Assembly (NCBI GenBank): GCA_029261055.1
Contig: JAJDCA010000044.1
Coordinates: 13,867 to 77,866 of the forward strand
Direction: 5' to 3'
Length of the DNA stretch: 64,000 nt
Origin: Candidatus Omnitrophota bacterium
GTDB lineage: Bacteria; Omnitrophota; Gorgyraeia; Zapsychrales; Zapsychraceae
Shown here: in pieces, positions 37,034-50,705 of the stretch
Position numbering within the stretch: the first letter of the stretch is position 1
Layout: every line of letters starts with the position of its first letter
The notes under the pieces: generated by a model
The model's input: only the letters and a program-made list of their open reading frames with translations
Databases searched by the model: none
Told to the model about the DNA's origin: nothing
Program-made: the position numbers and the translations under genes

Positions 37034-37077
37034 AATGATTCACTTGACGAAATTAAATCGTGCAGTAGAATATTTTT

Positions 37078-38952
37078 ATGCCGCTCAAAGTCCGCATTCC
37101 GGATGACAATTATTGGAAAGAACAAATTAAATGTCAATATGCCTGCCCGGTACACACCGATGCACGTGGATACGTGCGTGCGGTTGCAGACGGAGATTTT
37201 GACAAGGCTTATCTCATTGCACGTGCACCAAATCCGTTAGCCTCGATTTGCGGGCGGATTTGCGGGGCACCGTGTGAAGCGGCTTGTCGACGTGGCAGCG
37301 TGGATAAAAGTATTTCGATTCGTGCGCTTAAACGTTCCGCTGTTGACCATCATCAATACCAAGACAACCAGCCGCTTAATCTCATCCAAAAAATAAAAAC
37401 ATCCTTACAAAATCGTGATTGTTCCGACCTTGAAGATTTAGGTGGGTTATTCCAGAATTTTGATAATCAAAAAATGCCTAAAACAGAGGGGCAAAGCATT
37501 GGCATTATCGGCTCCGGCCCGGCGGGATTAGCTGCCGCGCATGATTTGGCCCTGATGGGATTTTCTGTCATCATTTATGAAATGGAATCGGTCCCGGCAG
37601 GGATGTTGTATTTAGGGGTGCCGGCCTACCGTCTTCCGCGTGAACTCATCGAGGCGGAGGTAGATGTCATTAAAGCTTTAGGTGTTGAAATCAAAACGAA
37701 TTGTACTATTGGTAAAGATATTACTTTTGATGCTTTACGCAAAAAACATCAAGCGGTTATTATTGCGGTCGGATGCAAGAAGTCTCGTTCAATTCCGTTG
37801 CCAGGAATTGACGCCGAAGGGGTGATTGGTGGTGTCGAATTTTTAAGAGATGTTTCTCTGAATTTACCGCATACCATCGGGAATAAAGTCGTCGTGATCG
37901 GTGGTGGTAACGTGGCCTATGATGTGGCCCGTTCGGCTCTTCGACAACAACAAATGGATGTGGCCGCCACGGCCTTGCATGAACGCGAAGGGATTAAGGT
38001 TACTTTGTCTTGTTTAGAACGGGAAGATGAAATGTTGGCGGATGAAATTGAAATCTTAGAAGGGGAAGAAGAAGGGGTCACTCGACAAAATGGGTATGGT
38101 CCTCAGGAAGTTTTAACAAAAAATAATAAAGTAACCGGTGTGGTATTCCATAAAGTGATTTCTATTTTTGATGAAAATAAACAATTTAATCCAAAATATG
38201 ATCCCAATCAATCCATCACAATTGAAGCGGACACAGTTTTATTGTCCGTGGGGCAACGTTCTGATATTTCTTTTGTAGATCCCAAAAAAGACGGCGTAAC
38301 GATTAATGATAGGGGGATTATGACGTGTGACCCTGACACTCTGGAAACGACGGCGTCGGGTGTTTTTCTTGCGGGTGATTTGGCGCATGGACCGCGACTC
38401 ATGATTGATGCGATTGCCAGCGGTAAAAAAGTAGCCCGTTCAATTTATCAAAAATTAATAGGCACAGCCTTTTCGTTTGACAGCAAACAAACGCATGTTC
38501 CTATTGAAAATTATTCGCGCGAGGCCGGTTACGAAAAAATTCGCAGACAAGTCTTGCAATCCGTAGAAGTTACCGATAGAATTTATAATCATACAACGGT
38601 GGTTGAAAAAGGTTTCACCTGTGGCCAGGCCAAGGTGGAAGGGGCCCGTTGTTTTGATTGCAGTGTCAACACGATCTTTGACGGTAATAAATGTATTCTT
38701 TGCGGTGGGTGTGTGGATGTGTGTCCTGAATTATGCCTTAAACTTGTTCCGATCGATGAACTCGATGGCGATAAAACATTTTCCGAATTAACAAATATTG
38801 TTAAAGAACAAAAATCCACTGATGAGTTAACTGCTATTATTAAAGATGAAGAAAAATGTATTCGGTGTTCCTTATGTGCCATTCGTTGTCCGGTTGATGC
38901 CATTACGATGGAACGATTTTCGTTTACAACAGCTACGTGTCAAAAAAAATAA
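37078..38952 (+). CDS. GltD-like NAD(P)H/FAD oxidoreductase with N- and C-terminal iron-sulfur domains
   Basis: 624 aa. N-terminal Cys clusters (CQYACPVHTDARG, CGRICGAPCEAAC) as in the glutamate synthase small subunit. Two Rossmann motifs (IGIIGSGPAGLAAA, VVVIGGGNVAYD). C-terminal 2x[4Fe-4S] (CILCGGCVDVCP, CIRCSLCAIRCP). Confidence 0.8.
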   Translation: MPLKVRIPDDNYWKEQIKCQYACPVHTDARGYVRAVADGDFDKAYLIARAPNPLASICGRICGAPCEAACRRGSVDKSISIRALKRSAVDHHQYQDNQPLNLIQKIKTSLQNRDCSDLEDLGGLFQNFDNQKMPKTEGQSIGIIGSGPAGLAAAHDLALMGFSVIIYEMESVPAGMLYLGVPAYRLPRELIEAEVDVIKALGVEIKTNCTIGKDITFDALRKKHQAVIIAVGCKKSRSIPLPGIDAEGVIGGVEFLRDVSLNLPHTIGNKVVVIGGGNVAYDVARSALRQQQMDVAATALHEREGIKVTLSCLEREDEMLADEIEILEGEEEGVTRQNGYGPQEVLTKNNKVTGVVFHKVISIFDENKQFNPKYDPNQSITIEADTVLLSVGQRSDISFVDPKKDGVTINDRGIMTCDPDTLETTASGVFLAGDLAHGPRLMIDAIASGKKVARSIYQKLIGTAFSFDSKQTHVPIENYSREAGYEKIRRQVLQSVEVTDRIYNHTTVVEKGFTCGQAKVEGARCFDCSVNTIFDGNKCILCGGCVDVCPELCLKLVPIDELDGDKTFSELTNIVKEQKSTDELTAIIKDEEKCIRCSLCAIRCPVDAITMERFSFTTATCQKK

Positions 38953-38955
38953 TTT

Positions 38956-39417
38956 ATGTCAAATTCTAACAAAAAAATAACCCGGAGAGATTTCTTAGGG
39001 TTATCTGCTTTGTGGACATGCCTTGCCGCATGGTTTTTCACATTTCTCGGTCTTCTTAAATTCCCCAAACCTGCATTATTACCTGATGTATCTAATGTCT
39101 TTAAAATTGGCCGTCCTGACGATATTCCAATAGATAGCGAAAAAATTTATGATGATAAAAAAGTCCTTATTGTACGCGACAATGAAGGGGTTTCTGCTGT
39201 TTCGTTGATTTGTACGCATTTAGGATGTATTGTTTCGAAAAGCAAAGATGGATTTTCATGTCCCTGTCATGGATCAAAATTTGATACCAATGGGGATGTG
39301 ATTGCAGGACCAGCCCCTCGGGGATTAAGCTGGCTTGAAGTAAGTCAACTTCCCAGTGGAAAATTAGTTGTGAATGCCGGGAAACGTGTGCCGGAGGGGA
39401 CGAAGTTTGTAGTTTAA
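38956..39417 (+). CDS. petA: Rieske [2Fe-2S] protein, TAT-targeted and membrane-anchored
   Basis: RRDFLGLSALW twin-arginine signal/TM. CTHLGC ... CPCHGS Rieske boxes. Confidence 0.85.
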   Translation: MSNSNKKITRRDFLGLSALWTCLAAWFFTFLGLLKFPKPALLPDVSNVFKIGRPDDIPIDSEKIYDDKKVLIVRDNEGVSAVSLICTHLGCIVSKSKDGFSCPCHGSKFDTNGDVIAGPAPRGLSWLEVSQLPSGKLVVNAGKRVPEGTKFVV

Positions 39418-39423
39418 AATTAT

Positions 39424-39490: not shown

Positions 39491-39526
39491 ATATAAAATT
39501 ATCTTATCGATATCTGGAAATAATTA

Positions 39527-41065
39527 ATGCCTATCAAAAAATTTTACCAAAATCTTAAACAATTACCTCAAACGTTTATCGAATCCATTATTCGCAATGA
39601 TAAACCTACGTCTGATCGAGCGCGTAGCCAGGCGGTGTTTGGAAACATGTTCCTTCATATTTTCAGCACACGTATTCATCGTTATTCGTTAAAAAAGACA
39701 TTCACCTTTGGATTAGGTATCATATCTGCTTTTTCCTTTATAATCCTTATTGTCACAGGCATTCTTTTAATGATTTATTACAAGCCATCAGTCGAATTGG
39801 CCTATGATTCTATCAAAGACATTCAATACATTGTCCCTGGTGGTCGATTTATTCGTAATGTGCATCGCTGTGCTACCAATGTTATGATCGTGGCTGTTTT
39901 TCTTCACATGGCAAGAGTCTTTTATACGGCGGCTTACAAACGCACGCGTTCTTTTAATTGGGTTTTAGGCATTGGACTTCTTGCCTTAACGCTGATGATG
40001 AGTTTTACAGGTTATTTGCTTCCCTGGGATCAGTTAGCCTATTGGGCAGTTACGATTGCGACGAATATTGCGGCTTCAACCAGTGAATTAACGGATGCAT
40101 TAAATATTACGGCTTATTTTGATCCAGGACATGTCATTAAGGTTCTTTTGTTAGGATCAGAAAATATTGGGCAGGATGCCCTAACGCGTTTTTATTGGCT
40201 GCATTGTATTATTCTTCCAGTGGCCTTGGTGATGGTTTTGGCCGTGCATGTATGGCGTGTGCGCAAAGATGGAGGATTGGCCAGGCCGGATACACTTACA
40301 GAAGAAGATTTGAAAGGTACGCCGAAAGATCCGCTTTCTGATAAGGTTTTTAATCATGCGCCGCAGAAAACATACGGTTTAATGTGCCTGGTTAAAGGGA
40401 AGTCCAATGCTGTCAGCAGAGGACCGGAACAAACCGTTTCGAGCTGGCCTCATATGATGATTCGTTTAGTAGGGTTGTTTATGCTGACATTTGCACTATG
40501 TTGTATTTATGCCTATTTTGTTGAAGCTCCGCTTAAAGAAATGGCTAATCCCGCCGTACCAGAAAATCCTGCCAAGGCACCATGGTATTTTCTAGGTTTG
40601 CAAGAATTAGTTTCTTATTCTGCTTTTATGGGAGGCGTCGGCATTCCAACCTTAGCCCTTTTAGGATTAGCTTTAATTCCGTATTTGGACAGAGAAAATC
40701 AAGAAATTGGGCGTTGGTTTGATGATAAAAAAGGGAAGAAAGTCGCCATACAATCTTTCATTTATGCCTCCGTTGTTGTGATCGGTATGCTTATTTTTAC
40801 GGTGAGTTTTGGATGGTTACGCAATTGGTTTCCTGCCATTCCTCAGCTGGCGATTACATTTATTAATCCGGGAACCATATTAGTTGGATTTTATGTCGGG
40901 TGGTCTTTATATTGTATGGCCAAATATAAATCAACACGCATGTCGGCGATTGCTTTATTTACATGTTTTCTTGTTGGCTTTTTAGTTTTAACGTATTTTG
41001 CAACCTTTCACCGTGGACCAAATTGGGATTTTTATTGGCTAAAGAGCCAGTGGCCTATTCATTAA
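39527..41065 (+). CDS. petB: Cytochrome b (fused cytochrome b6 / subunit IV-like, long form)
   Basis: 512 aa with ~9 TM helices. The His pairs on helices (HRCATNVMIVAVFLHMARV ... HCIILPVALVMVLAVHVWRV) have the spacing of the bL/bH haem ligands. Follows the Rieske gene. Confidence 0.85.
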   Translation: MPIKKFYQNLKQLPQTFIESIIRNDKPTSDRARSQAVFGNMFLHIFSTRIHRYSLKKTFTFGLGIISAFSFIILIVTGILLMIYYKPSVELAYDSIKDIQYIVPGGRFIRNVHRCATNVMIVAVFLHMARVFYTAAYKRTRSFNWVLGIGLLALTLMMSFTGYLLPWDQLAYWAVTIATNIAASTSELTDALNITAYFDPGHVIKVLLLGSENIGQDALTRFYWLHCIILPVALVMVLAVHVWRVRKDGGLARPDTLTEEDLKGTPKDPLSDKVFNHAPQKTYGLMCLVKGKSNAVSRGPEQTVSSWPHMMIRLVGLFMLTFALCCIYAYFVEAPLKEMANPAVPENPAKAPWYFLGLQELVSYSAFMGGVGIPTLALLGLALIPYLDRENQEIGRWFDDKKGKKVAIQSFIYASVVVIGMLIFTVSFGWLRNWFPAIPQLAITFINPGTILVGFYVGWSLYCMAKYKSTRMSAIALFTCFLVGFLVLTYFATFHRGPNWDFYWLKSQWPIH

Positions 41066-41118
41066 TGAGCACATAATTTATGGAGCGTAAGCGAACATAA
41101 ATTATCTGTGCGAATTAA

Positions 41119-41159
41119 CCCTGCGAAGCTCAACGCGAAAGCAATTGAGCGAAGCAGGG
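41119..41159 (+). promoter_or_regulatory. Structured 5' leader hairpin upstream of the decahaem cytochrome gene
   Basis: CCCTGC-GAA-GCTCAA-C-GC[GAAA]GC-AA-TTGAGC-GAA-GCAGGG forms a two-tier stem with symmetric GAA/GAA internal loops and a GNRA tetraloop. GC-rich in an AT-rich region. Confidence 0.4.
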
Positions 41160-41168
41160 TAAAATAAT

Positions 41169-43745
41169 ATGAAAAAACTCATTATATTTTCCAGTCTTGT
41201 CATCATCCTCGTTCTTCTTGCCGAAGCCAAGCGCGAAAATTTGAGCATGGATTGGCAAAAATATCAGAAGCAATACCGCAGTGAATTACTTCAATTAGCT
41301 GAAACACCTCAAGAAAAACAAATCGCCAAACAATATGCAATTCAAATGCGTCAGATTGTTCTTCCGGAACAAAATAAAGTGGATCGCTGTACGATTTGCC
41401 ATGTCGGTGTAGAAGACGGACGTATGGCCGATAAACCTAATCCACTTAAAACACATCCGGGCAATTATTTGGAAGTTCATGAAGTAGAAAAAACTGGATG
41501 TACCATTTGTCATGACGGACAGGGACGGGCGATTACCTTTGCTGAATCCAAAGCCCATGCTGAAGATAAATTTTGGGAAAAACCTGTTTTAAATAAACCC
41601 TTTGTGGAAGCAAATTGTTACCGTTGTCATCAAAATACGCTGGCCGCCACGCCGAATTATAATCACGGAAAAGAGTTGTTTGACACGAACGGATGTTTAG
41701 GGTGCCATCAAATTAATGGGAAAGGCGGCATCAAAGGACCGGATCTTTCTAATTTAGGTAATGCCAATTTTCACGTCAAAATGCCGACAGATCATAACCG
41801 TCATGACCTTTTACACAAATTCGACGAAAATGTTAATTTGGCCTATATTTATGAAGCCGTAAAAGATCCGCATGCCCAGCCGCTTGATTCCGCCATGGTC
41901 GATTATAAATTTACAGATGAAGATTCAATTGCTTTAACGGTGTATTTAAAAAGTTTATTAGATGATAGCGTACCTAAAGATTTATTAGCCACACGTAAAC
42001 CCCAAACACCTCTGACACCTTTACAACATGGCCAGCAATTATATGGCATGTATTGCATAGCCTGTCACGGGGAGGAAGGTAAAGGCACACATTTAAACGA
42101 ACTTAGTAAAATCGGACCGGCGATCGGTAACACCGAATTTTTGGCGATTGCAGATGATAAGTTAATCAATCATGTCATCAGTTTTTCAAGGGGTGGTGAA
42201 ATGCCGCCATTTAAAAAGAGTGGAGGACTGACAACCGAAGAAATTGCTCATATTACGGAATACATTTTATCTTTGAAAAAAACGCCGCCTTCGTTTGAAG
42301 AAGTCAGCACCGTTGAAGGAAATGCAAAATACGGCGCAGCTTTTTTTGCTACCAATTGTGCCAGCTGTCACGGTGCCGATGCCAATTTTGAACAAGACCT
42401 TGTTGGTCCCACATTAAATAATCCAACCCTTTTAGGTTTAGCCACGAAAGAATTTTGGTATGACACTATTGTCAACGGTCGCCTCGGCACCGCCATGCCT
42501 TCATGGCATTTTTTAAATAAAACCCAAATTGCCGATGCGATTGCTTACCTTGAATCTCTCAAGCCTGAGCCACTTGATACAAAGAAGGTATTGGCCTTAA
42601 TACAAAAAGGGGCTTCACTGGAAAACGGGGAAAAACTTTACAAAGGAAATTGTTCAAGTTGTCACGGTTTATCCGGTGAAGGCGGTTTAGCCCCAAGCCT
42701 TAACAATAAAGAATTCCACCAAATTACCGATGCGAAATTTATTTTAAAGGTCTTAATCGAAGGCCGCGAAGGTACAGCCATGCCGAGCTGGAACCATTTA
42801 CCCGAAGAAAATGTGGCTGACCTGATTGCTTACATTAAATCATGGCAGGTGGGTGATTCTGTTGAATTGTCGAACGAGCGTATCATCAGCTCGGAGATAC
42901 AAGGAAAAGCCTTGTTTCAAGAATCGTGTCAAAAGTGTCACATGGTGGGGCGGGGTAGTGTAGTGGCACCGGCTATTTTTTCCAAAGGATTTCTCCGACA
43001 GGCGAGCGATCAGTACATAAAGCACAGCATCATGTATGGACGCGGGCACACCGCCATGCCGCCGGCCTTAGTCGGTACAAGCGGTGTGGTTGAGTTAACA
43101 GATGAAGAAATCAATTCCATGGTGGCCTACATCCGTTCATTTGAAAAATTCCCGGTTGAACTTAAAGGGATGTCCATGTACTACGGTAACAATGCTGAAG
43201 GAAAAGAATTGTTCGGTCGCAGTTGTGCGCAATGTCACGGAGATCATGGTGAAGGCGGCGTTGGTCCGGCGATTGGGAAAAAAGGATTTTTGGATAGTGT
43301 TTCCGACGGATTTATTTATGCGATGTTGCGCATAGGACGTCCAGGATCTGAAATGAAACCATTCCCGCCTCACGGAGATGGTTTTAGTAATTTAAGTGAT
43401 ACTGAAGCTTCCGATATTATCAGCTTTTTGCGATCTAATATTTCTAACGCCGAGAAACATACGAAAAAGGTTAGAGGTTATGCCCAGAGAGGTAAAGAAT
43501 TTTTTGCTGCGTATTGTGCGCAATGTCATGGAATAAATGGACAAGGTGGCATCGCTCCTGATTTGAATAATAAGAATTTTATGGACTCTGTGTCCGATAG
43601 TTATTTACAAGCAACGATGTCATTGGGACGACACGGCACTCAAATGAAACCCATGATGAAAGGTGGAAGCGGGGTTGTTGAACTTTCATCACAGGAAGTT
43701 AATAATATTATTAGTTATTTGCGATCATTGATCGAAATAGAATAG
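41169..43745 (+). CDS. Multihaem c-type cytochrome (about 10 CxxCH), N-terminal multihaem region plus tandem class-I monohaem domains
   Basis: Signal/anchor MKKLIIFSSLVIILVLLA. CxxCH motifs: CTICHV, CTICHD, CYRCHQ, CLGCHQ, CIACHG, CASCHG, CSSCHG, CQKCHM, CAQCHGDHG, CAQCHGING. The last six are each followed by a Met-containing GTAMP / GxxM motif typical of His/Met monohaem domains. Confidence 0.85.
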   Translation: MKKLIIFSSLVIILVLLAEAKRENLSMDWQKYQKQYRSELLQLAETPQEKQIAKQYAIQMRQIVLPEQNKVDRCTICHVGVEDGRMADKPNPLKTHPGNYLEVHEVEKTGCTICHDGQGRAITFAESKAHAEDKFWEKPVLNKPFVEANCYRCHQNTLAATPNYNHGKELFDTNGCLGCHQINGKGGIKGPDLSNLGNANFHVKMPTDHNRHDLLHKFDENVNLAYIYEAVKDPHAQPLDSAMVDYKFTDEDSIALTVYLKSLLDDSVPKDLLATRKPQTPLTPLQHGQQLYGMYCIACHGEEGKGTHLNELSKIGPAIGNTEFLAIADDKLINHVISFSRGGEMPPFKKSGGLTTEEIAHITEYILSLKKTPPSFEEVSTVEGNAKYGAAFFATNCASCHGADANFEQDLVGPTLNNPTLLGLATKEFWYDTIVNGRLGTAMPSWHFLNKTQIADAIAYLESLKPEPLDTKKVLALIQKGASLENGEKLYKGNCSSCHGLSGEGGLAPSLNNKEFHQITDAKFILKVLIEGREGTAMPSWNHLPEENVADLIAYIKSWQVGDSVELSNERIISSEIQGKALFQESCQKCHMVGRGSVVAPAIFSKGFLRQASDQYIKHSIMYGRGHTAMPPALVGTSGVVELTDEEINSMVAYIRSFEKFPVELKGMSMYYGNNAEGKELFGRSCAQCHGDHGEGGVGPAIGKKGFLDSVSDGFIYAMLRIGRPGSEMKPFPPHGDGFSNLSDTEASDIISFLRSNISNAEKHTKKVRGYAQRGKEFFAAYCAQCHGINGQGGIAPDLNNKNFMDSVSDSYLQATMSLGRHGTQMKPMMKGGSGVVELSSQEVNNIISYLRSLIEIE

Positions 43746-43754
43746 GAGATTATT

Positions 43755-46421
43755 ATGCCAAAATCTAAGGGATCTATAACACGAAGAAATTTTTTGAAAG
43801 GAACTGTCGCTGGCGCAGCCGCGTTAGGCATGTCGGATACATTGTTTAGCCCGACTAAGGTCATGGCCGAGGAATTAGGCCTTGTTAATAAAGTTATCGA
43901 GATGCCGGCACAATGTCCCTATTGTGGCGTCGGGTGTGGCTCCATTATTAAATTTGATCAAAAATCTGCAAAGATTATCGGCGTTGTCCCGGATAAACAA
44001 CATCCAACCAATAAAGGCGTGCAATGCATTAAAGGATTAAATGCCGACGAACCAACTTATGTTGATCGACTTAAAAAAGTCTTAGTACGAAAAGATATGA
44101 GTGATCCTTTAAGAGGGTATGTATCTAAATCTAAAGGTAGCTTTGATGACAAAGATTTTCATGAAGTTTCTTTTGAAGAAGCCGAAGAATTGGTCGCCCA
44201 TAAAATGGGGGAAATTTACAAAGCACATGGTGGCAACAGTATTGGATTATACGGTTCAGGCCAATTGACCGTTGAAGCGCAGTGGATCGAAAACAAACTC
44301 GTTAAAGGTGTTTTAGGTTCCAACTCCATTGAAGCGAATGCCCGTATGTGTATGACGTCGGCTGTAACGGGCTATTTTGCAACCTTAGGCAGTGACACCC
44401 CACCACTTTCGTATGACGATATTGAAATGTCGGATATGATTACCTTCTGGGGGCACAATCCTCGAGGAGCTCACCCGATTGTCTTTTGGCGTGTGGCAGA
44501 TCATAAAAAATCTAAAGACATCCCAACCGTTGTGTCTGATCCCAGAAGAACAGGATCTGTGCAAGCTTTAGAAGGCATTAATCCACGGAATAGTTTTCAT
44601 TTTCAAAGTATCAACGGTGATATTTCGATTTTAAACGCCATCGGCCATGTTCTCATTAAAGATCATGAAGATATTATTGATTATCCTTTCTTAAAAGAAC
44701 ATGTAACAGGTTGGCAAAAATACGTGAAGATGGTCACAGAAGAATACTCTCCGGAACAAGTACAAGATCGTTCAATGGTAGATCCGCAGCTTATACGCAC
44801 GGTCGCCGCTCAATGGGCAGATGCGACGCGTAAACGCAAACGCCGTGGAACTGGTGGCGTCATTTCTTTCTGGGGTATTGGTTATAATCAACATCTGCAT
44901 GGACAGCATAATGTCATTAGCCTTATTAATCTCCATGCCTTAACAGGCAATATTGCTAAGCCGGGATGTGGTCCATTCTCCATGACAGGACAACCAAATG
45001 CCATGGGTGAACGACTTATGGGGGGATTAACAGGACGCCTTCCTTTTAATATCGGCATAGAGAATGAAAAACATCGTGATTGGATTGGAAAAATTTGGAA
45101 TGTTCCCAAAGAACGTATGGACAAAATGGCGATGGAGAAAAATCCTGGAATGATGATCGGTTTATTTGAACGAGCAATGAAAGGTGATGTAAAGGGTATG
45201 TTTTATATGTACACAACCCATATTCATCAACCGGATCTGAATACATTGATTCGACCTGCTCTTTCTAAATTATTTCTTGTTGTCCAAGATATTTACCGGC
45301 ATGCCCCGAATAACCTTTATGGCGATGTCATCTTTCCAGCTTTGACCTGGGGTGAATGGCAGGGGGGAACATACATTAGTTCAGAAAGACGATTTAACGT
45401 CGTTGACGGTATTGGAAAAGGTGCACCCGGACTTGAAAATTGTGTTCCTGATCTTGATTTGGCCATTGATAAAGGAAAAAAATTGGCCAATATAGTCGGT
45501 TTAGACGGCGATAAAATTTTCCCTTATAAAAAGAAAAAATTTCATCCAGATGGGCCCATGCTTTATGATTCTGAAGAAGTGTTTGAAGAAATCATACGAG
45601 GTTCTAAGGGAACGGATGCTGATTTAACAGGTATGTTAGAAGTGCGCGATCGTGACGGTATCGGCCTTTATGAGCAACTTCGTCGTTTAAGAGGCATGCA
45701 ATGGCCGGCGCCAACCTATGAAATAGCCAAACAAGGCGGCGTTAAACGACGCTATATGGGGCAAGAAGGATGGAAAGATAAAACATATGGTATGTTTCGG
45801 CATAAGGACGGTAAGTTGCATATGAAAGCTTGCCAACAGGATTATTCTAAAAGAAAAGAAGTTACGGCTGAATTAGAAAAATTTGGAACAGTAGAAGGTT
45901 ATTATACCATTGATCATCCGGAAGTATTAACCAAGGCGCGCGATATGGCCCTCACACCGGAGATGCCGGATTCTGAAGATCTTGGAAAACATTGGAAAGA
46001 AATCCCGAAAAATAAATACCCGTTCTGGCTTGGTTTAGGAATCGTGTATGAACATTTTCATACAGCCAAAACGATTCGCGGCGCAACCACTCGACGTTTG
46101 GTACCGGAACAGTATGTAGAAATGCATCCGGATGACGCCGAAGAAAATGGTCTGCGTGATGGAGATCAAATAAAGGTTATTACACGACGGGGCGAATATC
46201 AAGGGCGTGTCAGTGTCGGGGGGTATCGTAGTAAAGTCAAGCCGGCACGAAATGAAGTGCCGAAAGGATACATTTTTTCTCCATGGAATTTATCTGTGGC
46301 GGATTCGGCAGATCCGAAAAAAAATAAATGGTTAGTTAATGCCGTTTCTCACAGAGCCTATGATCCTGTTTCCGGTCAAGCTGACTTCAAAAAACTTGCG
46401 GCTCGGATTGAAAAGATTTAA
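43755..46421 (+). CDS. Divergent periplasmic NapA-like bis-MGD molybdoenzyme (nitrate-reductase-like; substrate not proven)
   Basis: 888 aa. TAT signal (ITRRNFLKGTVAGAAALG). N-terminal 4Fe-4S box CPYCGVGCG ... C-x-KG aligned to NapA. NARMCMTSAV aligns to the NapA Mo-ligand cysteine region (NARLCMASAV in the canonical NapA at 61197). Confidence 0.85.
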   Translation: MPKSKGSITRRNFLKGTVAGAAALGMSDTLFSPTKVMAEELGLVNKVIEMPAQCPYCGVGCGSIIKFDQKSAKIIGVVPDKQHPTNKGVQCIKGLNADEPTYVDRLKKVLVRKDMSDPLRGYVSKSKGSFDDKDFHEVSFEEAEELVAHKMGEIYKAHGGNSIGLYGSGQLTVEAQWIENKLVKGVLGSNSIEANARMCMTSAVTGYFATLGSDTPPLSYDDIEMSDMITFWGHNPRGAHPIVFWRVADHKKSKDIPTVVSDPRRTGSVQALEGINPRNSFHFQSINGDISILNAIGHVLIKDHEDIIDYPFLKEHVTGWQKYVKMVTEEYSPEQVQDRSMVDPQLIRTVAAQWADATRKRKRRGTGGVISFWGIGYNQHLHGQHNVISLINLHALTGNIAKPGCGPFSMTGQPNAMGERLMGGLTGRLPFNIGIENEKHRDWIGKIWNVPKERMDKMAMEKNPGMMIGLFERAMKGDVKGMFYMYTTHIHQPDLNTLIRPALSKLFLVVQDIYRHAPNNLYGDVIFPALTWGEWQGGTYISSERRFNVVDGIGKGAPGLENCVPDLDLAIDKGKKLANIVGLDGDKIFPYKKKKFHPDGPMLYDSEEVFEEIIRGSKGTDADLTGMLEVRDRDGIGLYEQLRRLRGMQWPAPTYEIAKQGGVKRRYMGQEGWKDKTYGMFRHKDGKLHMKACQQDYSKRKEVTAELEKFGTVEGYYTIDHPEVLTKARDMALTPEMPDSEDLGKHWKEIPKNKYPFWLGLGIVYEHFHTAKTIRGATTRRLVPEQYVEMHPDDAEENGLRDGDQIKVITRRGEYQGRVSVGGYRSKVKPARNEVPKGYIFSPWNLSVADSADPKKNKWLVNAVSHRAYDPVSGQADFKKLAARIEKI

Positions 46422-46490: not shown

Positions 46491-46583
46491 TCTATGCAAG
46501 AAAATCGCCTTTGTCGATAACCTGAAGGCGTATTTTTGGTGCCGATAGGAAAGTTTTATACTTTCCTATACGGGCAAAAAATT

Positions 46584-47171
46584 ATGATCAGAAGAAATTT
46601 TATTAAACGCACCTTAATATTTTTTGCCGCGAGTACTCTTTATTCACTCATGGGAAACCATGTGGTCTTTGGAAAAACCAGAAAAATATTCAAGAAATAT
46701 TTACGCCCCCCCGGAGCTCTTCCTGAAAAAGATTTTTTAGCGACGTGTATTAATTGTCATCGTTGCGGACAAGCCTGCCCCAGCGATTGTATTCAGTACA
46801 TTAATGATCCATTAAATCCTTCAATGCACGACACGCCCTACATTAATCCACGACAGAAGGCTTGTATTCTTTGCATGAAATGCACACAAGCCTGCCCGTC
46901 AGGATCTTTACAACGTATTGATAATGATGATTCCGATTCTATTCACAAACACGTAAAAATGGGAATTGCGGTTGTGGATACAAATATTTGCAATTCTTAC
47001 AATGGATATTCCTGCGGCGTATGTATCCGGGCTTGTCCTTTAGGAGAAGAAACTTTAAAAACAGGCAACTGGGAACGTCCAATCGTTAACCCTGATAACT
47101 GTGTTGGCTGCGGGCTTTGTGAACAAAGCTGTATTCACTATCCACAGGCGATAAGGGTAGAACCGATATGA
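46584..47171 (+). CDS. napG: NapG/MauM-like periplasmic 4x[4Fe-4S] ferredoxin, TAT-exported
   Basis: MIRRNFIKRTLIFFAAS TAT-like signal. Four ferredoxin boxes (CINCHRCGQACP, CILCMKCTQACP, CGVCIRACP, CVGCGLCEQSC). I set the start at the internal ATG rather than track ORF 46536. Confidence 0.75.
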   Translation: MIRRNFIKRTLIFFAASTLYSLMGNHVVFGKTRKIFKKYLRPPGALPEKDFLATCINCHRCGQACPSDCIQYINDPLNPSMHDTPYINPRQKACILCMKCTQACPSGSLQRIDNDDSDSIHKHVKMGIAVVDTNICNSYNGYSCGVCIRACPLGEETLKTGNWERPIVNPDNCVGCGLCEQSCIHYPQAIRVEPI

Positions 47172-48598
47172 TCACAAAATTTCGACGACTAATTCAATGG
47201 AGTATTTTCTTAGGCATCATCCTCATTACTGTCTTAAATTATTACGAAAACCAAAAAGTAAAATATGGAGGAGAGTTGGTTATTCAAGAATCACCCATTT
47301 TACGGACTGTAGATAAAATTTTTGGGCAGCTTGAAAACCGCACAAAAATTGTCACTTTTTTACAAGGGGATGTTTGGTCGTTTCAAATAGGCTCTATTAA
47401 AATTACGGATCCATTGGCCTTTATTGGCAATATCAGTCGCACCAAAGCTATCTATTGGCCACTTTTTTTAGCCGCTTTAATCCCGATCATTCTGACAATT
47501 CTTTTAGGAAAAGTGTTTTGTAGTTGGATTTGTCCGATGGGACTTTTGTTTGAATTAAATGCAAAATTACGCACCGTGTTACAAAAATTCGCTTTACCGT
47601 TAGGTAATTTTACATTGCCTCCTTGGTGCAAATATATTGTATTAGGCGGTGGAATTTTTACAGGGCTTGTTTGGGGTGCCCATTATTTCTTTCTGATTTA
47701 TCCCCCCAAAATTATTTCCGGTGAAATTTATTTTAGTGTCATTAAATCTTCATTAGGATATGGCGTTGCATTTCTTTTTCTGCTTTTAGCGATTGAATTA
47801 TTTCTTGCCCCACGATTTTGGTGTCGTTCGCTTTGTCCCGGAGGGGCATTGTACACCTTATTGAGTCAATTTCGCTTTTTACGCATTAAAAACGATTTAA
47901 ATCGCTGCACAAACTGCGGCATTTGCGATACCTTGTGCCCATATGACATCACCCCGTCCAAAGGAAAATTATCATTGGAATGTGATCATTGTTCTCTATG
48001 TATTACTAAATGCCCAGTCAAAAGCCTTTCTTTTAAGATGCCCAACCGTACACACACCCCCGGGGTGTGTATATGGTTAATCTTAACCATGTGTCTTTTT
48101 TTCAATGCGACAACGGCATCAGCGCATCATATCCGCGGATTACCACATTATGGATATTCTGAAAATTATCCGCAGACGCCAACGTATGAAGAAATTCGTG
48201 TGGTTGATGATTGGAAAGTTAATTTTTCATATATAAAAATTTTTGAAACCAAAAATTGTGATTTAGCTGTTTATTTAAAAAATACAAAAACCGGGAAACC
48301 ATATGCTGGAAAAATTCGGTTTAAAGTTTTTGGCGAAAGGGAAGACCCTGAAGCTTCGCCTTATTATGATACGCATTTTGATCCAACCAATACGTTCCGC
48401 GTAGGATGGGCTTATGAATTGGATGGTGTTTACATTGTGAGAGCCCAATTTTTTGATGAAGGCAAAGAGTATATTGAAGATTTTCGTATGCAAATAGGCA
48501 AAGTTGGATTTAATCCGTTATGGTGGGCTATTCCAGGAATATTTGTTTTAATTTTAATCATATTAATTGCTGTGAAACAACGGAGGAGCTCTAAATGA
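47168..48598 (+). CDS. napH: NapH/MauN/CcoG(RdxA)-family membrane polyferredoxin with C-terminal periplasmic beta-domain and terminal TM
   Basis: TM helices with CSWICPMG and CRSLCPGG (CxxCP) motifs. Two ferredoxin boxes (CTNCGICDTLCP, CDHCSLCITKCP). ~170-aa C-terminal extension ending in a TM helix, as in CcoG/FixG. ATGA overlap with napG. Confidence 0.75.
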   Translation: MITKFRRLIQWSIFLGIILITVLNYYENQKVKYGGELVIQESPILRTVDKIFGQLENRTKIVTFLQGDVWSFQIGSIKITDPLAFIGNISRTKAIYWPLFLAALIPIILTILLGKVFCSWICPMGLLFELNAKLRTVLQKFALPLGNFTLPPWCKYIVLGGGIFTGLVWGAHYFFLIYPPKIISGEIYFSVIKSSLGYGVAFLFLLLAIELFLAPRFWCRSLCPGGALYTLLSQFRFLRIKNDLNRCTNCGICDTLCPYDITPSKGKLSLECDHCSLCITKCPVKSLSFKMPNRTHTPGVCIWLILTMCLFFNATTASAHHIRGLPHYGYSENYPQTPTYEEIRVVDDWKVNFSYIKIFETKNCDLAVYLKNTKTGKPYAGKIRFKVFGEREDPEASPYYDTHFDPTNTFRVGWAYELDGVYIVRAQFFDEGKEYIEDFRMQIGKVGFNPLWWAIPGIFVLILIILIAVKQRRSSK

Positions 48599-50121
48599 TT
48601 ATGTCGGGTTTACCAAAGTGGTTATTTTTTACAAGTATTGCGCTTGTGTTGATGATTTCATTTATCCTGGTAGAGTGGTTAAACCGATCCAATCGTAAGG
48701 CCAAGCCCTATCCTAAGTTTAACATTCTTTCCATTCCCGGCGTCAAGGCTTGTGTGAAGGCCCCATTTTTTAAATTCCTTTTTCAATTTCCTGTATTTTT
48801 AATTTTCTGCCTTATTATTTATGCCGGTATTTACGGACATGCCGTGATTAATATTGCCCCTGTATTGACTTGGACCATATGGTGGGCAGGACTCATTTTT
48901 CTAATTTTATTTTTTGGTAAGGCCTGGTGTTTTGTGTGTCCCTGGGATTTTGTCGCGACTCTTTTTCAATATTTAAAACCATTCGGTGTCAGCAAAAAAC
49001 CTTTTACATTGGGATATAAATGGCCAAGGTGGCTGAAGAATATTTATTTGGCTATTGGATTATTCGTTCTCTTAACATGGTTTGAGCTAGGATATCATGT
49101 GACGGCCTCACCACGCTTTACAGCAATATTAGCGATTGTCATTGTTTTTCTCTCCGTCATTCCGGCTTTAATTTTCGAAAAACGTTCTTTTTGTAAATAC
49201 GGGTGCCTCATTGGACGCATTTCAGGATTGTATGCCATGTTTTCACCTGTGGAAGTGCGCAGTGCAGACTTGGATGTATGTACAAAATGCAAGACAAAAG
49301 ATTGTTATACCGGAAATGATAAAGGTAATGCTTGCCCAACATCACTTGTGATTCCTCAAATCAAAGAAAATACCTATTGTATTTTATGTACAGAATGTGT
49401 CAAAAGTTGTCCGCACGATAATGTCGCCATTAATGTACGCCCCTTTGCAACGGATTTGAAAAATTTTACAAAAGTAAAAAGTGATGAAGCCATACTGGCC
49501 ATTATTCTTTTGGCCTTAACATCCTTTCATGGACTCACCATGACCCCACTGTGGGATTCACCGACAGGTAATTCAATAATCCATTCTATACGTTCCATCA
49601 CAGGATTTGGACCATTAGGGGCCTTTACATTAGGCATGTTTTGTGTGAATGCAGCGTTAGGTTTATTTTATTATCTAATCGCCTTAATTACACAACGATT
49701 TGTCGGAGAGCCGCAGGTTTCAACTAAAAAAGTTTTTTTGTATTACGCCTATTCTTTGCTACCCATTGCTTTGTTTTATCACTTAGCGCATAATGCCATG
49801 CATGTATTCATGGAGGGGCAAGTTGTCGTCCCCTTAATTTCGGATCCATTAGGGCAGGGTAATAATTTCTTTGGCACGGCGCAATGGTATTTGGCACCGC
49901 TGTTATCACACAGCAGCATTTGGTATCTGCAGGTGGGACTTGTCCTCATCGGACATATTTTTGGTATTATTATCGCGCATCATGTTTCACGAAAACTTTA
50001 TTCTGATCGCAGGGCCGCCATACGATCATTAGTTCCTATGCTCATCGGCATGATTTTTTACTCATTTCTTTCCTTATGGATTATGCATTTGGATATGAAT
50101 ATGCGGAGTAGTTTGATGTGA
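48595..50121 (+). CDS. Second NapH/MauN-family membrane polyferredoxin with extra C-terminal His-rich TM helices
   Basis: CFVCPWD and CKYGCLIG CxxCP-type motifs in TM context. Ferredoxin box CILCTECVKSCP. The C-terminal ~200 aa have 4 additional TM helices carrying conserved His (HLAHNAMH, GHIFGIIIAHH). Confidence 0.7.
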   Translation: MIMSGLPKWLFFTSIALVLMISFILVEWLNRSNRKAKPYPKFNILSIPGVKACVKAPFFKFLFQFPVFLIFCLIIYAGIYGHAVINIAPVLTWTIWWAGLIFLILFFGKAWCFVCPWDFVATLFQYLKPFGVSKKPFTLGYKWPRWLKNIYLAIGLFVLLTWFELGYHVTASPRFTAILAIVIVFLSVIPALIFEKRSFCKYGCLIGRISGLYAMFSPVEVRSADLDVCTKCKTKDCYTGNDKGNACPTSLVIPQIKENTYCILCTECVKSCPHDNVAINVRPFATDLKNFTKVKSDEAILAIILLALTSFHGLTMTPLWDSPTGNSIIHSIRSITGFGPLGAFTLGMFCVNAALGLFYYLIALITQRFVGEPQVSTKKVFLYYAYSLLPIALFYHLAHNAMHVFMEGQVVVPLISDPLGQGNNFFGTAQWYLAPLLSHSSIWYLQVGLVLIGHIFGIIIAHHVSRKLYSDRRAAIRSLVPMLIGMIFYSFLSLWIMHLDMNMRSSLM

Positions 50122-50705
50122 CCAAAGAAAACCTTTCCCGACGAGATTTTTTTAAAAAAGGATTAAAGTCGTTGGCTCAAGGCGCCAAGGAAACCGCCAC
50201 GATTTTATATTCATCGGAAGAACCCATTACGCCCAGCCGAACTCTTGTACGCCCTCCCGGAGCATTACCTGAAAAAGAATTTCTTGAAAAATGCACACGA
50301 TGTAATGAATGTGTGAAAGTCTGTCCTGAAGAATCCATTATGAAATTTGTCGGCGAAGAATCGCCCCTGCATTTAACACCCATGCTTTCCGTGCGTAAAT
50401 CACCGTGTGTGCTTTGTGAAGATTTTCCGTGTATCAAAGTATGCGAACCCGAAGCCTTAGTGATGCCGGCTGCACGTGAAGAAGTAAAAATGGGCATAGC
50501 GGTGATTAATGAAAAACTTTGTTATGCCTGGCAAGGGGGCCAAGATTGTGATTACTGTATTAAAGAATGCCCCATAGGAGAAAAAGCTATTTATTTTGAT
50601 GAAGTACGCCGGCCGCATGTATCGTCGGAACATTGTACTGGCTGCGGATGCTGTGAATATATTTGTCCCAGTCGTCAACCGGCGATTGTTGTCGGCACGC
50701 GTTAA
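50118..50705 (+). CDS. Second NapG/MauM-like periplasmic 4x[4Fe-4S] ferredoxin, TAT-exported
   Basis: SRRDFFKKGLKSLA TAT signal. Boxes CTRCNECVKVCP, CVLCEDFPCIKVC, CDYCIKECP, CTGCGCCEYICP. Confidence 0.75.
   Translation: MTKENLSRRDFFKKGLKSLAQGAKETATILYSSEEPITPSRTLVRPPGALPEKEFLEKCTRCNECVKVCPEESIMKFVGEESPLHLTPMLSVRKSPCVLCEDFPCIKVCEPEALVMPAAREEVKMGIAVINEKLCYAWQGGQDCDYCIKECPIGEKAIYFDEVRRPHVSSEHCTGCGCCEYICPSRQPAIVVGTR

What the first reader, a model, noticed from the sequence alone, without database searches (positions are those of the whole stretch)
41169..43745. Decahaem cytochrome c built from a 4-haem N-terminal block plus six tandem monohaem class-I domains
I count ten CxxCH motifs. The last six are regularly spaced (~75-100 aa apart) and each is followed by a Met-containing GTAMP / GxxM motif, as in His/Met-ligated mitochondrial-type cytochrome c domains. 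A six-fold tandem array of such domains fused to a multihaem head is an unusual architecture. It sits exactly where a bc complex would carry cytochrome c1/f, so it could act as a built-in electron wire from the Rieske/b core to the NapA-like enzyme.
Basis: seen in the sequence. Interest (0 to 1): 0.6.

Follow-up and report, generated by a model that had tools for sequence, protein, structure and literature searches.

The report
Ten-haem cytochrome of a nitrate-linked bc complex
This intact gene encodes a membrane-anchored cytochrome with ten haems (three in a head, then seven tandem mitochondrial-type units) that sits where cytochrome c1 would sit in a Rieske/cytochrome b complex and probably wires that complex to a nitrate-reductase-like enzyme; the module occurs in many uncultured bacteria and I found no description of it.

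Summary
ORF 41169-43745 (+) is an uninterrupted 858-aa protein with ten CxxCH motifs. These use all 20 of its cysteines.

The partition needs correcting. The protein is an N-terminal membrane helix, a three-haem head (probably bis-His), and SEVEN class-I units, not six. Each unit passes Pfam Cytochrom_C on its own and has an invariant Met. Haem 4 belongs to the first unit, which together with the head forms the conserved core.

It is not a mis-joined fusion: all 114 full-length homologues have exactly ten CxxCH.

The gene order is conserved: NAD(P)-binding FeS flavoprotein, Rieske, fused cytochrome b, decahaem, TAT-exported NapA-like Mo enzyme, NapG-like, NapH-like. It is found in 34 of 34 adequately flanked decahaem loci from at least ten phyla, all metagenome-assembled genomes. 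Relatives with 5-8 haems share the core but have other partners or none.

Best reading: this is the c subunit of an anammox-type Rieske/cytochrome b complex, extended into a high-potential haem chain that feeds a periplasmic nitrate reductase. The wiring and the direction of flow are inferred, not shown.

I rate it a new variant of a known kind, of moderate interest.

The parts
41169..43745 (+). Decahaem cytochrome c gene (858 aa): membrane helix, 3-haem head, 7 class-I monohaem units
41169..41243 (+). N-terminal hydrophobic helix (aa 1-25). Probably a membrane anchor; cleavage after 'AEA' is not excluded
   Evidence: Hydropathy; AF2 helix 2-25
41346..41645 (+). Three-haem head (CxxCH at aa 74, 111, 150). 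Invariant H96 and H104, and H130 aligned next to a mostly-His column, are candidate distal ligands, so probably bis-His
   Evidence: Only sub-threshold c7/c3/MtrC-domain Pfam hits; conservation; low pLDDT without haems
41646..41984 (+). Class-I unit 1 (d4, aa 160-272; haem 4, invariant M243; ~20-aa insertion). With the head it forms the conserved core
   Evidence: Pfam Cytochrom_C 44.7 bits alone
42006..42284 (+). Class-I unit 2 (d5, aa 280-372; haem 5, M345)
   Evidence: Pfam 41.9/46.5 bits; invariant Met
42309..42578 (+). Class-I unit 3 (d6, aa 381-470; haem 6, M443)
42603..42866 (+). Class-I unit 4 (d7, aa 479-566; haem 7, M538)
42879..43154 (+). Class-I unit 5 (d8, aa 571-662; haem 8, M630)
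43176..43454 (+). Class-I unit 6 (d9, aa 670-762; haem 9, M729)
43467..43742 (+). Class-I unit 7 (d10, aa 767-858; haem 10, M826); 45% identical to d9
37078..38952 (+). NAD(P)-binding FAD/FeS oxidoreductase (GltD-like); no export signal was noted, so presumably cytoplasmic
   Evidence: Pfam Pyr_redox_2, Fer4_20, Fer4; NCBIfam PRK12771; conserved upstream in 34/34 loci
38956..39417 (+). Rieske [2Fe-2S] protein with TAT motif (TRRDFL) and one TM helix; boxes CTHLGC / CPCHGSKF
39527..41065 (+). Cytochrome b, fused b6-like and subunit-IV-like halves (8 TM). Four canonical haem His plus conserved His44
43755..46421 (+). TAT-exported NapA-like molybdopterin enzyme. Its start lies 9 nt after the decahaem stop, with GGAG in between
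46536..47171 (+). NapG-like periplasmic polyferredoxin
   Evidence: NapG 134 bits, below cut-off; 34/34 synteny
47168..48598 (+). NapH-like membrane FeS protein with a C-terminal extension
   Evidence: Pfam Fer4_5; TM prediction
48595..50121 (+). Second polytopic CxxCP-type membrane FeS protein (no Pfam hit). Conserved in 23/34 loci
50118..50705 (+). Polyferredoxin with an N-terminal RR motif (NapG/NapF-like)

Best explanation
The gene encodes the cytochrome c subunit of a specialised Rieske/cytochrome b complex. This complex is of the kind known from anammox bacteria, in which the operon also encodes a cytoplasmic NAD(P)-binding FeS flavoprotein.

The protein is held at the membrane by an N-terminal helix. 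A three-haem head (probably bis-His) plus a first class-I unit form the conserved core that docks on the Rieske/b core and takes the electron from the Rieske cluster. Six further His/Met class-I units extend this into a ten-haem chain, expected to be of high potential. The chain hands electrons to the periplasmic NapA-like molybdoenzyme encoded 9 nt downstream, which most likely reduces nitrate.

Shown here: the ten haem-binding motifs, the seven class-I folds, the invariant Met and His residues, the c1/f gene position, and the strict co-occurrence with the Rieske, cytochrome b, flavoprotein and Mo-enzyme genes.

Inferred: the order of electron transfer, direct docking to the Mo enzyme, nitrate as substrate, and any coupling to NAD(P)+ reduction through the b haems and the flavoprotein (the bifurcation proposed for the Kuenenia complexes).
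For: Motifs and integrity.

Seven units each pass Pfam Cytochrom_C alone, at 39-54 bits against a cut-off of 21.3, with near-full profile coverage. They align with one another at 22-45% identity.

In 77 homologues of 33-72% identity, all ten CxxCH, seven Met (one per unit), H96 and H104 are invariant. All 114 full-length hits have ten CxxCH.

The AF2 model has pLDDT 86 and pTM 0.79, with repeated class-I helical units. Foldseek aligns about 90-residue stretches of it to cytochrome c6 chains (TM 0.67-0.77 normalised to the target) and two-unit stretches to dihaem QcrC and Kuenenia Kustc0457/8.

Gene order Rieske, cytochrome b, decahaem. The Mo gene starts 9 nt after the decahaem stop, with GGAG in between.

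In 34/34 ten-haem loci with enough flank, the flavoprotein, Rieske and cytochrome b genes lie upstream and the Mo enzyme and NapG-like genes downstream. None of the 4 five-haem relatives with enough flank has the Mo enzyme.

Each unit best matches its positional counterpart in Zixibacteria and Kiritimatiellia (7/7), so the array is old and position-specific.

The Mo enzyme is closest to E. coli NapA (2nya, 9.7e-78). It has the NapA-type 'CM' after the Mo-ligand Cys, not the 'U/C-H' of formate dehydrogenases.

The literature records anammox Rieske/b complexes with an NAD(P) oxidoreductase, a multihaem c subunit and a periplasmic catalytic partner, together with a bifurcation proposal (PMC12954380; PMC5600118).
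Against: There is no experimental or structural evidence that the last haems contact the Mo enzyme.

The same cluster encodes NapG- and NapH-like proteins. In canonical Nap systems these form a quinol-to-NapA route and would make a cytochrome wire unnecessary.

The Mo enzyme scores far below the NapA equivalog cut-off (350 against 904 bits), so its substrate is not established.

Seven units seem more than distance alone requires.

The 'AEA' after the N-terminal helix could be a signal-peptidase site, which would make the protein soluble.

Every genome with a named source that carries it is a MAG, so no physiology is available.
Confidence: 0.6

Rival explanations
1. Parallel modules. The decahaem is the c subunit of the Rieske/b complex but passes electrons to soluble or other periplasmic acceptors. 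The NapA-like enzyme is fed, as in canonical Nap systems, by the NapG/NapH-like quinol dehydrogenase. The genes are co-located only because they are co-regulated.
For: NapG- and NapH-like genes are conserved next to the Mo enzyme (34/34 and 31/34 loci). A hairpin followed by a T-run lies after the Mo gene (46456-46486). In L048, a locus with no Rieske or cytochrome b gene in about 9.7 kb upstream still has a class-I-only cytochrome followed by the Mo enzyme and NapGH-like genes. The Caldithrix genome paper also left NapGH open as the donor (PMC5317091).
Against: The ten-haem form never occurs without the Mo enzyme (34/34), whereas 5-haem forms with the same core lack it. The decahaem and Mo genes are 9 nt apart. 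In L048 a class-I array still directly precedes the Mo gene, which ties the array to the Mo enzyme rather than to the b core.
Confidence: 0.2
2. Reverse flow. The Mo enzyme oxidises a periplasmic substrate (such as nitrite, arsenite or another oxyanion). The decahaem collects these high-potential electrons and feeds them backwards through the Rieske/b core, with quinol or proton-motive force as co-driver, to make NAD(P)H on the flavoprotein.
For: His/Met class-I haems suit transfer in either direction. A related 8-haem locus (L058) sits next to an AioA-like arsenite oxidase large subunit and two dihaem peroxidases. Reverse operation of bc complexes is discussed for nitrite oxidisers (PMC3578206).
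Against: The Mo enzyme has the NapA-type Cys-Met active-site context and aligns best with nitrate reductases. NapGH-like partners are typical of reductive Nap systems. To my knowledge, no Nap-type enzyme is known to work physiologically as an oxidase.
Confidence: 0.1
3. Periplasmic electron store or general hub. The many haems act mainly as a capacitor or as a promiscuous distributor to several periplasmic reductases, rather than as a dedicated wire.
For: Seven units exceed what simple bridging seems to need. The number of units varies (2, 3, 5 or 7) among relatives with different neighbours.
Against: Each unit keeps its positional identity across phyla. The haem number tracks the partner enzyme. 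Both argue for a defined, ordered chain.
Confidence: 0.07
4. Artefact. The ORF is a mis-joined fusion of several cytochrome genes caused by an assembly or frameshift error.
For: None found.
Against: The reading frame is continuous. A 100% identical protein lies on an independent Logan assembly contig. 114 full-length homologues of 830-1030 aa all have ten CxxCH.
Confidence: 0.01

Closest known systems
Multihaem cytochrome c subunits of the anammox Rieske/cytochrome b complexes (Kuenenia stuttgartiensis Kustd1480-1485 and Kuste4569-4574; 'subfamily G' bc complexes)
   Same: The operon logic is the same: Rieske, b6-type cytochrome b with a subunit-IV part, a cytoplasmic NAD(P)-binding FeS flavoprotein, a membrane-anchored multihaem cytochrome in place of c1/f, and a periplasmic catalytic partner (PMC12954380; PMC5600118). 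Cytochrome b here has a conserved extra His at position 44, close in number to His43 of Kuste4571, which was proposed to bind an extra haem b.
   Different: The Kuenenia subunits are reported as hexa- or octahaem, with haems grouped in twos and threes and, in Kustd1485, long wrapping helices. Here there are ten haems, seven of them in tandem class-I units. The partner is a NapA-like Mo enzyme with NapGH-like proteins rather than an HAO-like octahaem enzyme. Cytochrome b is fused and shows no CxGG (haem c_n) motif. No Kuenenia sequence was compared directly.
Dihaem cytochrome cc (QcrC) of actinobacterial bcc complexes, and CcoP of cbb3 oxidases
   Same: Both consist of tandem class-I His/Met domains. 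QcrC acts as the built-in c subunit of a Rieske/b complex and wires it directly to a terminal enzyme. Both are top sequence and fold matches.
   Different: They have two units, not seven, no three-haem head, and an oxidase rather than a Mo enzyme as partner. The scores are below the family cut-offs (QcrC 157.7 against 200; CcoP 162.3 against 179.95).
Caldithrix abyssi Nap cluster with embedded Rieske/cytochrome b genes
   Same: A Rieske/cytochrome b pair is encoded inside a nap cluster that lacks NapB and NapC and includes NapGH. The authors proposed that the Rieske/b complex delivers quinol electrons to NapA through a multihaem cytochrome (PMC5317091). A Calditrichaceae MAG (L043) carries an 8-haem relative with the full module.
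   Different: In C. abyssi the proposed carrier is a tetrahaem NapM, and the authors note that there is no class-I cytochrome nearby. They mention no NAD(P) flavoprotein gene.
Trihaem cytochrome subunits of membrane-bound alcohol, aldehyde and fructose dehydrogenases, and the tetrahaem TsdBA fusion
   Same: To my knowledge these are the solved proteins with the most tandem class-I haem domains. They appear among the Foldseek matches (8gy2, 8gy3, 7w2j/8jej, 5lo9).
   Different: They have three or four units and unrelated partners. The spatial superposition is poor (rmsd 17-23 A; TM normalised to the query at most 0.13).
ActE (monohaem class-I subunit) of alternative complex III
   Same: It is the class-I output subunit of a quinol:cytochrome c oxidoreductase. 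In Elusimicrobia loci (for example L054) a class-I-only 7-haem relative of this array sits in the ActE position of an ACIII/Qrc-like cluster.
   Different: Canonical ActE has one haem. The window protein belongs to a Rieske/b complex, not an ACIII complex.

Membership tests
Class-I (mitochondrial-type) cytochrome c domain, Pfam PF00034/PF13442 | Profile match above the gathering score for each putative domain taken alone | tested here: met
   Seven fragments score 39.4-53.7 bits on PF00034 (cut-off 21.3), covering profile positions about 1-90
Class-I (mitochondrial-type) cytochrome c domain, Pfam PF00034/PF13442 | A single CxxCH near the N-terminus of the domain and a Met sixth ligand about 40-70 residues downstream | tested here: met
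   The CxxCH-to-Met distance is 43-46 aa in six units and 67 aa in d4. All seven Met are invariant in 77 homologues. Actual Fe-S(Met) ligation is not testable here
Class-I (mitochondrial-type) cytochrome c domain, Pfam PF00034/PF13442 | Helical class-I fold | tested here: met
   AF2 pLDDT is about 90 over the units, each with a repeated pattern of four to five helices. Foldseek aligns about 90-residue stretches to cytochrome c6 (TM 0.67-0.77 normalised to the target) and about 84-117 residues to cL chains
Cytochrome c1 (PF02167), the canonical bc1 c subunit | Profile match above the gathering score | tested here: not met
   18.1 bits against a cut-off of 22.8, over a 20-residue stretch only. 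It is a positional analogue, not a c1 homologue
Actinobacterial QcrC dihaem cytochrome cc (NF050122) | Whole-protein score above the curated cut-off | tested here: not met
   157.7 against 200 bits
CcoP (TIGR00782) | Whole-protein score above the curated cut-off | tested here: not met
   162.3 against 179.95 bits; no cbb3 genes are adjacent
Decahaem MtrA/DmsE, MtrC/OmcA and GSU2203 families | Profile match above the cut-off; closely packed bis-His haems throughout | tested here: not met
   19-20 bits against cut-offs of 192-325. Seven of the ten haems are in class-I units with Met
Anammox-type ('subfamily G') Rieske/cytochrome b complex with an NAD(P) oxidoreductase subunit | The operon encodes a Rieske protein, a b6-type cytochrome b with a subunit-IV part, and a large NAD(P)-binding FeS flavoprotein | tested here: met
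   conserved in 34/34 loci
Anammox-type ('subfamily G') Rieske/cytochrome b complex with an NAD(P) oxidoreductase subunit | A membrane-anchored multihaem cytochrome c in place of c1/f | tested here: met
   Gene position plus N-terminal helix. Physical association was not tested
Anammox-type ('subfamily G') Rieske/cytochrome b complex with an NAD(P) oxidoreductase subunit | CxGG motif for haem c_n in cytochrome b (reported as conserved in subfamily G; PMC5600118) | tested here: not met
   There is no C.GG anywhere in the 512-aa cytochrome b
Anammox-type ('subfamily G') Rieske/cytochrome b complex with an NAD(P) oxidoreductase subunit | Sequence relatedness of the subunits to Kuste4569-4574 / Kustd1480-1485 | not tested
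No hit carried a Kuenenia name
Periplasmic nitrate reductase NapA (for the neighbouring Mo enzyme) | Equivalog-level profile score | tested here: not met
   350.4 against 904 bits (NF010055) and 331.9 against 930.55 bits (TIGR01706)
Periplasmic nitrate reductase NapA (for the neighbouring Mo enzyme) | TAT signal, N-terminal [4Fe-4S] motif, and a Cys Mo ligand followed by Met | tested here: met
   TAT_signal and Molybdop_Fe4S4 hits. 'NARMCMTSA' aligns to E. coli NapA 'NARHCMASA'
NapB, NapC or NapM as electron donors to NapA | Homology of the decahaem or of any neighbouring gene to these families | tested here: not met
   No NapB or NapC profile hit. NrfH reaches only 23.6 bits against a cut-off of 134.2

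The most novel reading that the evidence does not exclude
The eight-gene module would be a nitrate-driven, quinol-bifurcating NAD(P)+ reductase. Quinol is oxidised at the Qo site. One electron runs downhill through Rieske, the ten-haem chain and the NapA-like enzyme to nitrate. The other is pushed through the b haems (perhaps including an extra haem on the conserved His44) to the cytoplasmic FeS flavoprotein, which makes NAD(P)H. This would extend the still-untested anammox Rieske/b hypothesis to a widespread enzyme in at least ten phyla of uncultured anaerobes. The sevenfold class-I array would be the structural adaptation that docks a large Mo enzyme.
Probability: 0.22. Interest if true: 0.8.

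Novelty: new variant of a known kind. Interest (0 to 1): 0.55.

Why it matters
Rieske/cytochrome b complexes are usually pictured with a one- or two-haem c subunit that reduces a soluble carrier. This window carries a conserved, phylogenetically broad variant. In it the c subunit has grown into a ten-haem chain, and it is genetically locked both to a periplasmic nitrate-reductase-like enzyme and to a cytoplasmic NAD(P)-binding flavoprotein.

If the chain really connects them, nitrate reduction by a Nap-type enzyme would be coupled to an energy-conserving Q cycle. Nap is normally regarded as non-electrogenic. It might also be coupled to NAD(P)H formation by quinol bifurcation, a mechanism proposed for anammox bacteria but never demonstrated.

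The family also shows a modular rule: a conserved head-plus-first-unit core, followed by 2, 3, 5 or 7 class-I units depending on the partner. That rule could help predict the electron partners of bc-type complexes in metagenomes.

In routine annotation these genes appear only as 'c-type cytochrome' and would probably be scored as an ordinary napA and bc complex, so the coupling would be missed.

Tried and rejected
1. Fusion or frameshift artefact: rejected.

2. Membership of the c1, QcrC, CcoP, NrfH/NapC or Mtr/Dms decahaem families: all below their cut-offs.

3. Sequence search of the PDB found only generic class-I matches. Foldseek against the PDB found nothing spanning more than a few units (TM normalised to the query at most 0.17).

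4. The afdb50 fold library was not available. Model coordinates are not exposed, so I could not measure His-Met or haem-haem distances or judge whether the chain is geometrically continuous.

5. Six full-text literature searches (two further attempts failed on syntax) found the anammox, Caldithrix and Nitrospina precedents. None described a Rieske/b, decahaem and NapA module or a sevenfold class-I array. The library lacks most subscription papers, so absence is not proof.

6. The cluster-member look-up returned no source names or organism for the window's protein. The closest named relative is an Omnitrophica MAG protein at 65% identity.

7. I considered that the head might be a NapC/NrfH-type quinol dehydrogenase. 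I rejected this because the score is weak and a complete Rieske/b quinol-oxidising core lies directly upstream.

8. The promoter and terminator scan gave fewer promoter-like sites than shuffled sequence and only consensus-level terminator-like sites. I used it only as a hint.
Full report
**1. The observation**

The window holds an uninterrupted ORF at 41169-43745 on the + strand, from ATG to TAG, encoding 858 aa. It contains ten CxxCH motifs at residues 74, 111, 150, 176, 296, 397, 495, 587, 686 and 783. Its 20 cysteines are exactly those of the ten motifs. From the protein's own composition about 0.017 such motifs would be expected by chance.

The last six motifs are 92-101 residues apart. 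Each is followed 43-46 residues later by a Met in a G-x-x-M-P/K context.

**2. Not a fusion artefact**

A protein 100% identical to this one is on an independent Logan assembly contig, again followed by the Mo enzyme gene. A database search returned 699 proteins at E<=1e-10. Of the 120 retrieved, all 114 that are at least 800 aa long have exactly ten CxxCH.

**3. Domain anatomy: 3 + 7, not 4 + 6**

Pfam reports seven Cytochrom_C stretches on the whole protein. I cut the protein at aa 160-272, 280-372, 381-470, 479-566, 571-662, 670-762 and 767-858. Each piece alone passes the PF00034 gathering score (39-54 bits against 21.3), with near-complete profile coverage.

The seven pieces align with one another at 22-45% identity. 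They share the pattern G-x-x-L-F/Y ... C-x-x-C-H-G ... G-P-x-L ... G-x-x-M-P ... Y-L/I-x-S-L. The first piece (haem 4) differs only by an insertion of about 20 residues.

In an alignment of 77 full-length homologues (33-72% identity), all ten CxxCH and seven Met are invariant: M243, 345, 443, 538, 630, 729 and 826, one per unit.

The first 159 residues carry three CxxCH and give only sub-threshold c7, c3 and MtrC-domain hits. H96 and H104 are invariant. H130 lies two residues from a column that is His in 59 of 77 homologues, where the window has Lys, so it may be the same ligand shifted by an alignment slip. Together these would give three distal histidines for three bis-His haems. That assignment is an inference.

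An AlphaFold2 model built on the alignment has mean pLDDT 86 and pTM 0.79. It shows a helix at residues 2-25 and seven repeats of the class-I helical pattern. Confidence is low only in the haem-packed head.

Foldseek against the PDB aligns about 90-residue stretches of the model to cytochrome c6 chains (TM 0.67-0.77 normalised to the target). It aligns stretches of about two units to dihaem proteins: actinobacterial QcrC and Kuenenia Kustc0457/8. Trihaem dehydrogenase subunits and TsdBA align over longer stretches but superpose poorly (rmsd 17-23 A). Nothing covers the whole chain (TM normalised to the query at most 0.17). A sequence search of the PDB gives the same picture.

**4. Surroundings**

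The gene lies in a co-directional, tightly spaced cluster:
- MoaA (34935-35894).
- A MobB-MobA fusion (35900-37033).
- A 624-aa NAD(P)-binding FAD/FeS oxidoreductase of the GltD type (37078-38952).
- A TAT-exported Rieske protein (38956-39417).
- A fused b6-plus-subunit-IV cytochrome b with 8 TM helices (39527-41065).
- The decahaem (41169-43745).
- A TAT-exported NapA-like molybdoenzyme (43755-46421).
- A NapG-like polyferredoxin (46536-47171).
- A NapH-like membrane FeS protein (47168-48598).
- A second CxxCP-type polytopic membrane protein (48595-50121).
- A further polyferredoxin with an RR motif (50118-50705).

The decahaem therefore occupies the c1/f position of a bc operon. The Mo gene starts 9 nt after the decahaem stop codon, with GGAG in between.

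The Mo enzyme aligns best with E. coli NapA (2nya, 9.7e-78). It has the NapA-type Cys-Met at the Mo ligand ('NARMCMTSA' against 'NARHCMASA'). However, it scores far below the NapA equivalog cut-off (350 against 904 bits). It is NapA-like, and nitrate is the best guess for its substrate, not a demonstrated one.

**5. Comparative evidence**

Six look-ups of homologues' contigs and a scan of GTDB species genomes gave 88 loci. The scan found more than 583 confirmed loci and I kept 80.

The hosts named by the records are Zixibacteria, Kiritimatiellia/Verrucomicrobia, Phycisphaerae and other Planctomycetota, Myxococcota, Desulfobacterota, Gemmatimonadales, Binatia, Hydrogenedentota, Calditrichaceae, Elusimicrobia, Bacteroidota, Acidobacteria, Nitrospirales and Omnitrophota. 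All 80 GTDB loci, and every other locus whose source is named, are MAGs.

Among ten-haem loci with at least 4.5 kb upstream and 3 kb downstream, 34 of 34 carry the flavoprotein, Rieske and cytochrome b upstream. All 34 also carry the Mo enzyme and the NapG-like gene downstream. NapH-like is present in 31 and the second membrane FeS protein in 23.

Relatives with fewer haems keep the head and the first class-I unit but differ downstream:
- Forms of about 420 aa with five haems (3+2) follow flavoprotein, Rieske and cytochrome b, or Rieske and cytochrome b alone. None of the four with enough flank has the Mo enzyme.
- Eight-haem forms occur with the full module in Calditrichaceae. In Bacteroidota they occur without flavoprotein or Mo enzyme. 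In one proteobacterial MAG the eight-haem form lies next to two dihaem peroxidases and an AioA-like subunit.
- The first class-I unit is the best-conserved part in the short forms.
- Class-I-only arrays of six or seven units also exist as separate proteins. One directly precedes the same Mo enzyme and NapGH-like genes (L048). Others occupy the ActE position of ACIII/Qrc-like clusters in Elusimicrobia.

Each of the seven units of the window protein best matches its positional counterpart in Zixibacteria and Kiritimatiellia homologues (7/7). The signal blurs among units 8-10 at about 33% identity. The array is therefore old and position-specific, not a recent expansion.

**6. Mechanism**

The best-supported reading is as follows. 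The protein is the c subunit of a Rieske/cytochrome b complex. It is anchored by its N-terminal helix. Its head and first unit receive the Rieske electron. The following six His/Met units carry that electron to the periplasmic NapA-like enzyme.

- His/Met class-I haems are typically of high potential. This is established knowledge, not measured here. It would fit a chain between a Rieske cluster and the nitrate/nitrite couple.
- The Rieske protein has the box-II serine ('CPCHGSKF'). In the Kuenenia Rieske proteins that serine accompanies potentials above +300 mV (PMC12954380).
- The strongest arguments for the wire are genetic. The ten-haem form and the Mo enzyme always co-occur, they are translationally coupled, and a class-I array still precedes the Mo enzyme where no Rieske or cytochrome b gene lies within about 9.7 kb upstream (L048).
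- The main weakness is that NapG/NapH-like proteins in the same cluster could supply NapA on their own, as proposed as one alternative for Caldithrix (PMC5317091). No structural or biochemical test of contact was possible here.

I put 0.6 on the wire reading as a whole. I put about 0.85 on the narrower claim that this is the c subunit of the Rieske/b complex. The alternatives and their weights are in the Rival explanations section.

**7. Relation to what is known**

Multihaem cytochromes replacing c1/f in bc-like operons are known from Kuenenia, Nitrospina and Methylomirabilis (PMC3578206).

Operons that add an NAD(P)-binding FeS flavoprotein are known from anammox bacteria. There, quinol bifurcation to NAD(P)H has been proposed, driven by a high-potential periplasmic reaction (PMC12954380; PMC5600118).

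The window's module fits that kind on operon content and on the anchored multihaem subunit. It differs in four respects:
- the design of the cytochrome (3 bis-His plus 7 tandem class-I units);
- the partner (a Nap-type Mo enzyme with NapGH-like proteins instead of an HAO-like enzyme);
- the fused cytochrome b;
- the absence of a CxGG motif.

Cytochrome b has a conserved extra His44 (64 of 65 aligned homologues). Its number is close to His43 of Kuste4571, which was proposed to bind an additional haem b. I could not align the two sequences directly.

The protein is not a member of the c1, QcrC, CcoP, NrfH or Mtr/Dms decahaem families by their own cut-offs.

Six full-text searches found no description of this module or of a sevenfold class-I array. 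The library is incomplete, so this is absence of evidence only.

**8. Verdict**

The class-I domains (seven, not six), the c1/f position and the integrity of the ORF are established. The wire to the NapA-like enzyme is well motivated by synteny but unproven.
- The architecture is rare among characterised proteins but common in environmental genomes.
- I classify it as a new variant of a known kind, with interest 0.55.
- The most novel reading still open is a nitrate-driven, quinol-bifurcating NAD(P)+ reductase spread over many uncultured phyla. I give it a probability of about 0.22. It would deserve an interest of about 0.8 if true.

Noticed in passing
window 27716-34088 (+): A second molybdoenzyme system lies directly upstream: a PsrB-like 4Fe-4S protein (27716-28462), an NrfD/PsrC-like membrane subunit (28464-29594), an 853-aa molybdopterin catalytic subunit (29607-32168), a NarJ/TorD-type chaperone (32168-32788) and a putative porin (32838-34088). 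The substrate is unknown.
   Followed up: no
window 23267-26625 and 34935-37033 (+): Cofactor-supply genes flank the respiratory clusters: a CcsBA/ResB-like cytochrome c assembly protein (23267-25216), MoeA (25420-26625), MoaA (34935-35894) and a MobB-MobA fusion (35900-37033). Moco genes are also adjacent in several homologous loci.
   Followed up: partly
window 47168-50705 (+): The NapH-like protein (476 aa) is much longer than I recall for typical NapH. It has a C-terminal extension of about 150 aa ending in a TM helix. It is followed by a 508-aa, roughly 9-TM protein with CxxCP-type cysteine motifs and no Pfam hit (homologues in 23/34 loci), and then by a second polyferredoxin with an RR motif. 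Their roles are unknown.
   Followed up: partly
window 39527-41065 (+), cytochrome b residue 44: Besides the four canonical haem-ligand histidines (H113, H127, H226, H241), His44 in the N-terminal segment is conserved in 64 of 65 aligned homologues, and H51 in 57. Its number is close to His43 of Kuste4571, which AlphaFold3 modelling proposed as ligand of an extra inter-monomer haem b (PMC12954380). No CxGG (haem c_n) motif is present, and the Qo motif reads APWY.
   Followed up: partly
window 46456-46486 (+) and 37044-37071 (+): A 12-bp hairpin followed by a T-rich tail lies 35 nt after the Mo enzyme's stop codon. A promoter-like site (10/12) lies just upstream of the flavoprotein gene. This would fit a five-gene core transcript (37078-46421) with read-through into the NapGH-like genes. 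These are consensus scans only.
   Followed up: no
L054:3637-13134 (Elusimicrobia MAG); also L052, L053, L057, L061, L071, L078: A 785-aa cytochrome made only of seven class-I units sits in the ActE position of an ACIII/Qrc-like cluster: a six-haem QrcA/ActA-like protein, a fused QrcB-QrcC/ActB-like protein of 1025 aa, an NrfD-like protein, and small subunits. Tandem class-I arrays thus recur as the output arm of different quinol-oxidising complexes.
   Followed up: partly
L058:5888-18637 (Proteobacteria MAG): An 8-haem (3+5) relative follows flavoprotein, Rieske and cytochrome b. Downstream are two dihaem cytochrome c peroxidase/MauG-type proteins and an AioA-like subunit (Rieske_3 3Fe-4S domain plus molybdopterin). 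This suggests the same core is paired with other periplasmic redox enzymes.
   Followed up: partly
L004/L005:1-9976 (Kiritimatiellia MAG): A second bc-type gene set lies directly upstream of the decahaem module: split cytochrome b, a 990-aa cytochrome with faint class-I and multihaem hits, and a second GltD-like flavoprotein. Two related modules are thus encoded in tandem.
   Followed up: no
L077:8633-15364 and L081:5287-6657 (Desulfobacterales MAGs): Five-haem (3+2) relatives with Rieske and cytochrome b lack the GltD-like gene. Instead they have amine-oxidase-type FAD proteins nearby, on both sides in L077 and upstream in L081. A small dihaem class-I cytochrome lies upstream (Pfam-confirmed in L077 only).
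   Followed up: no
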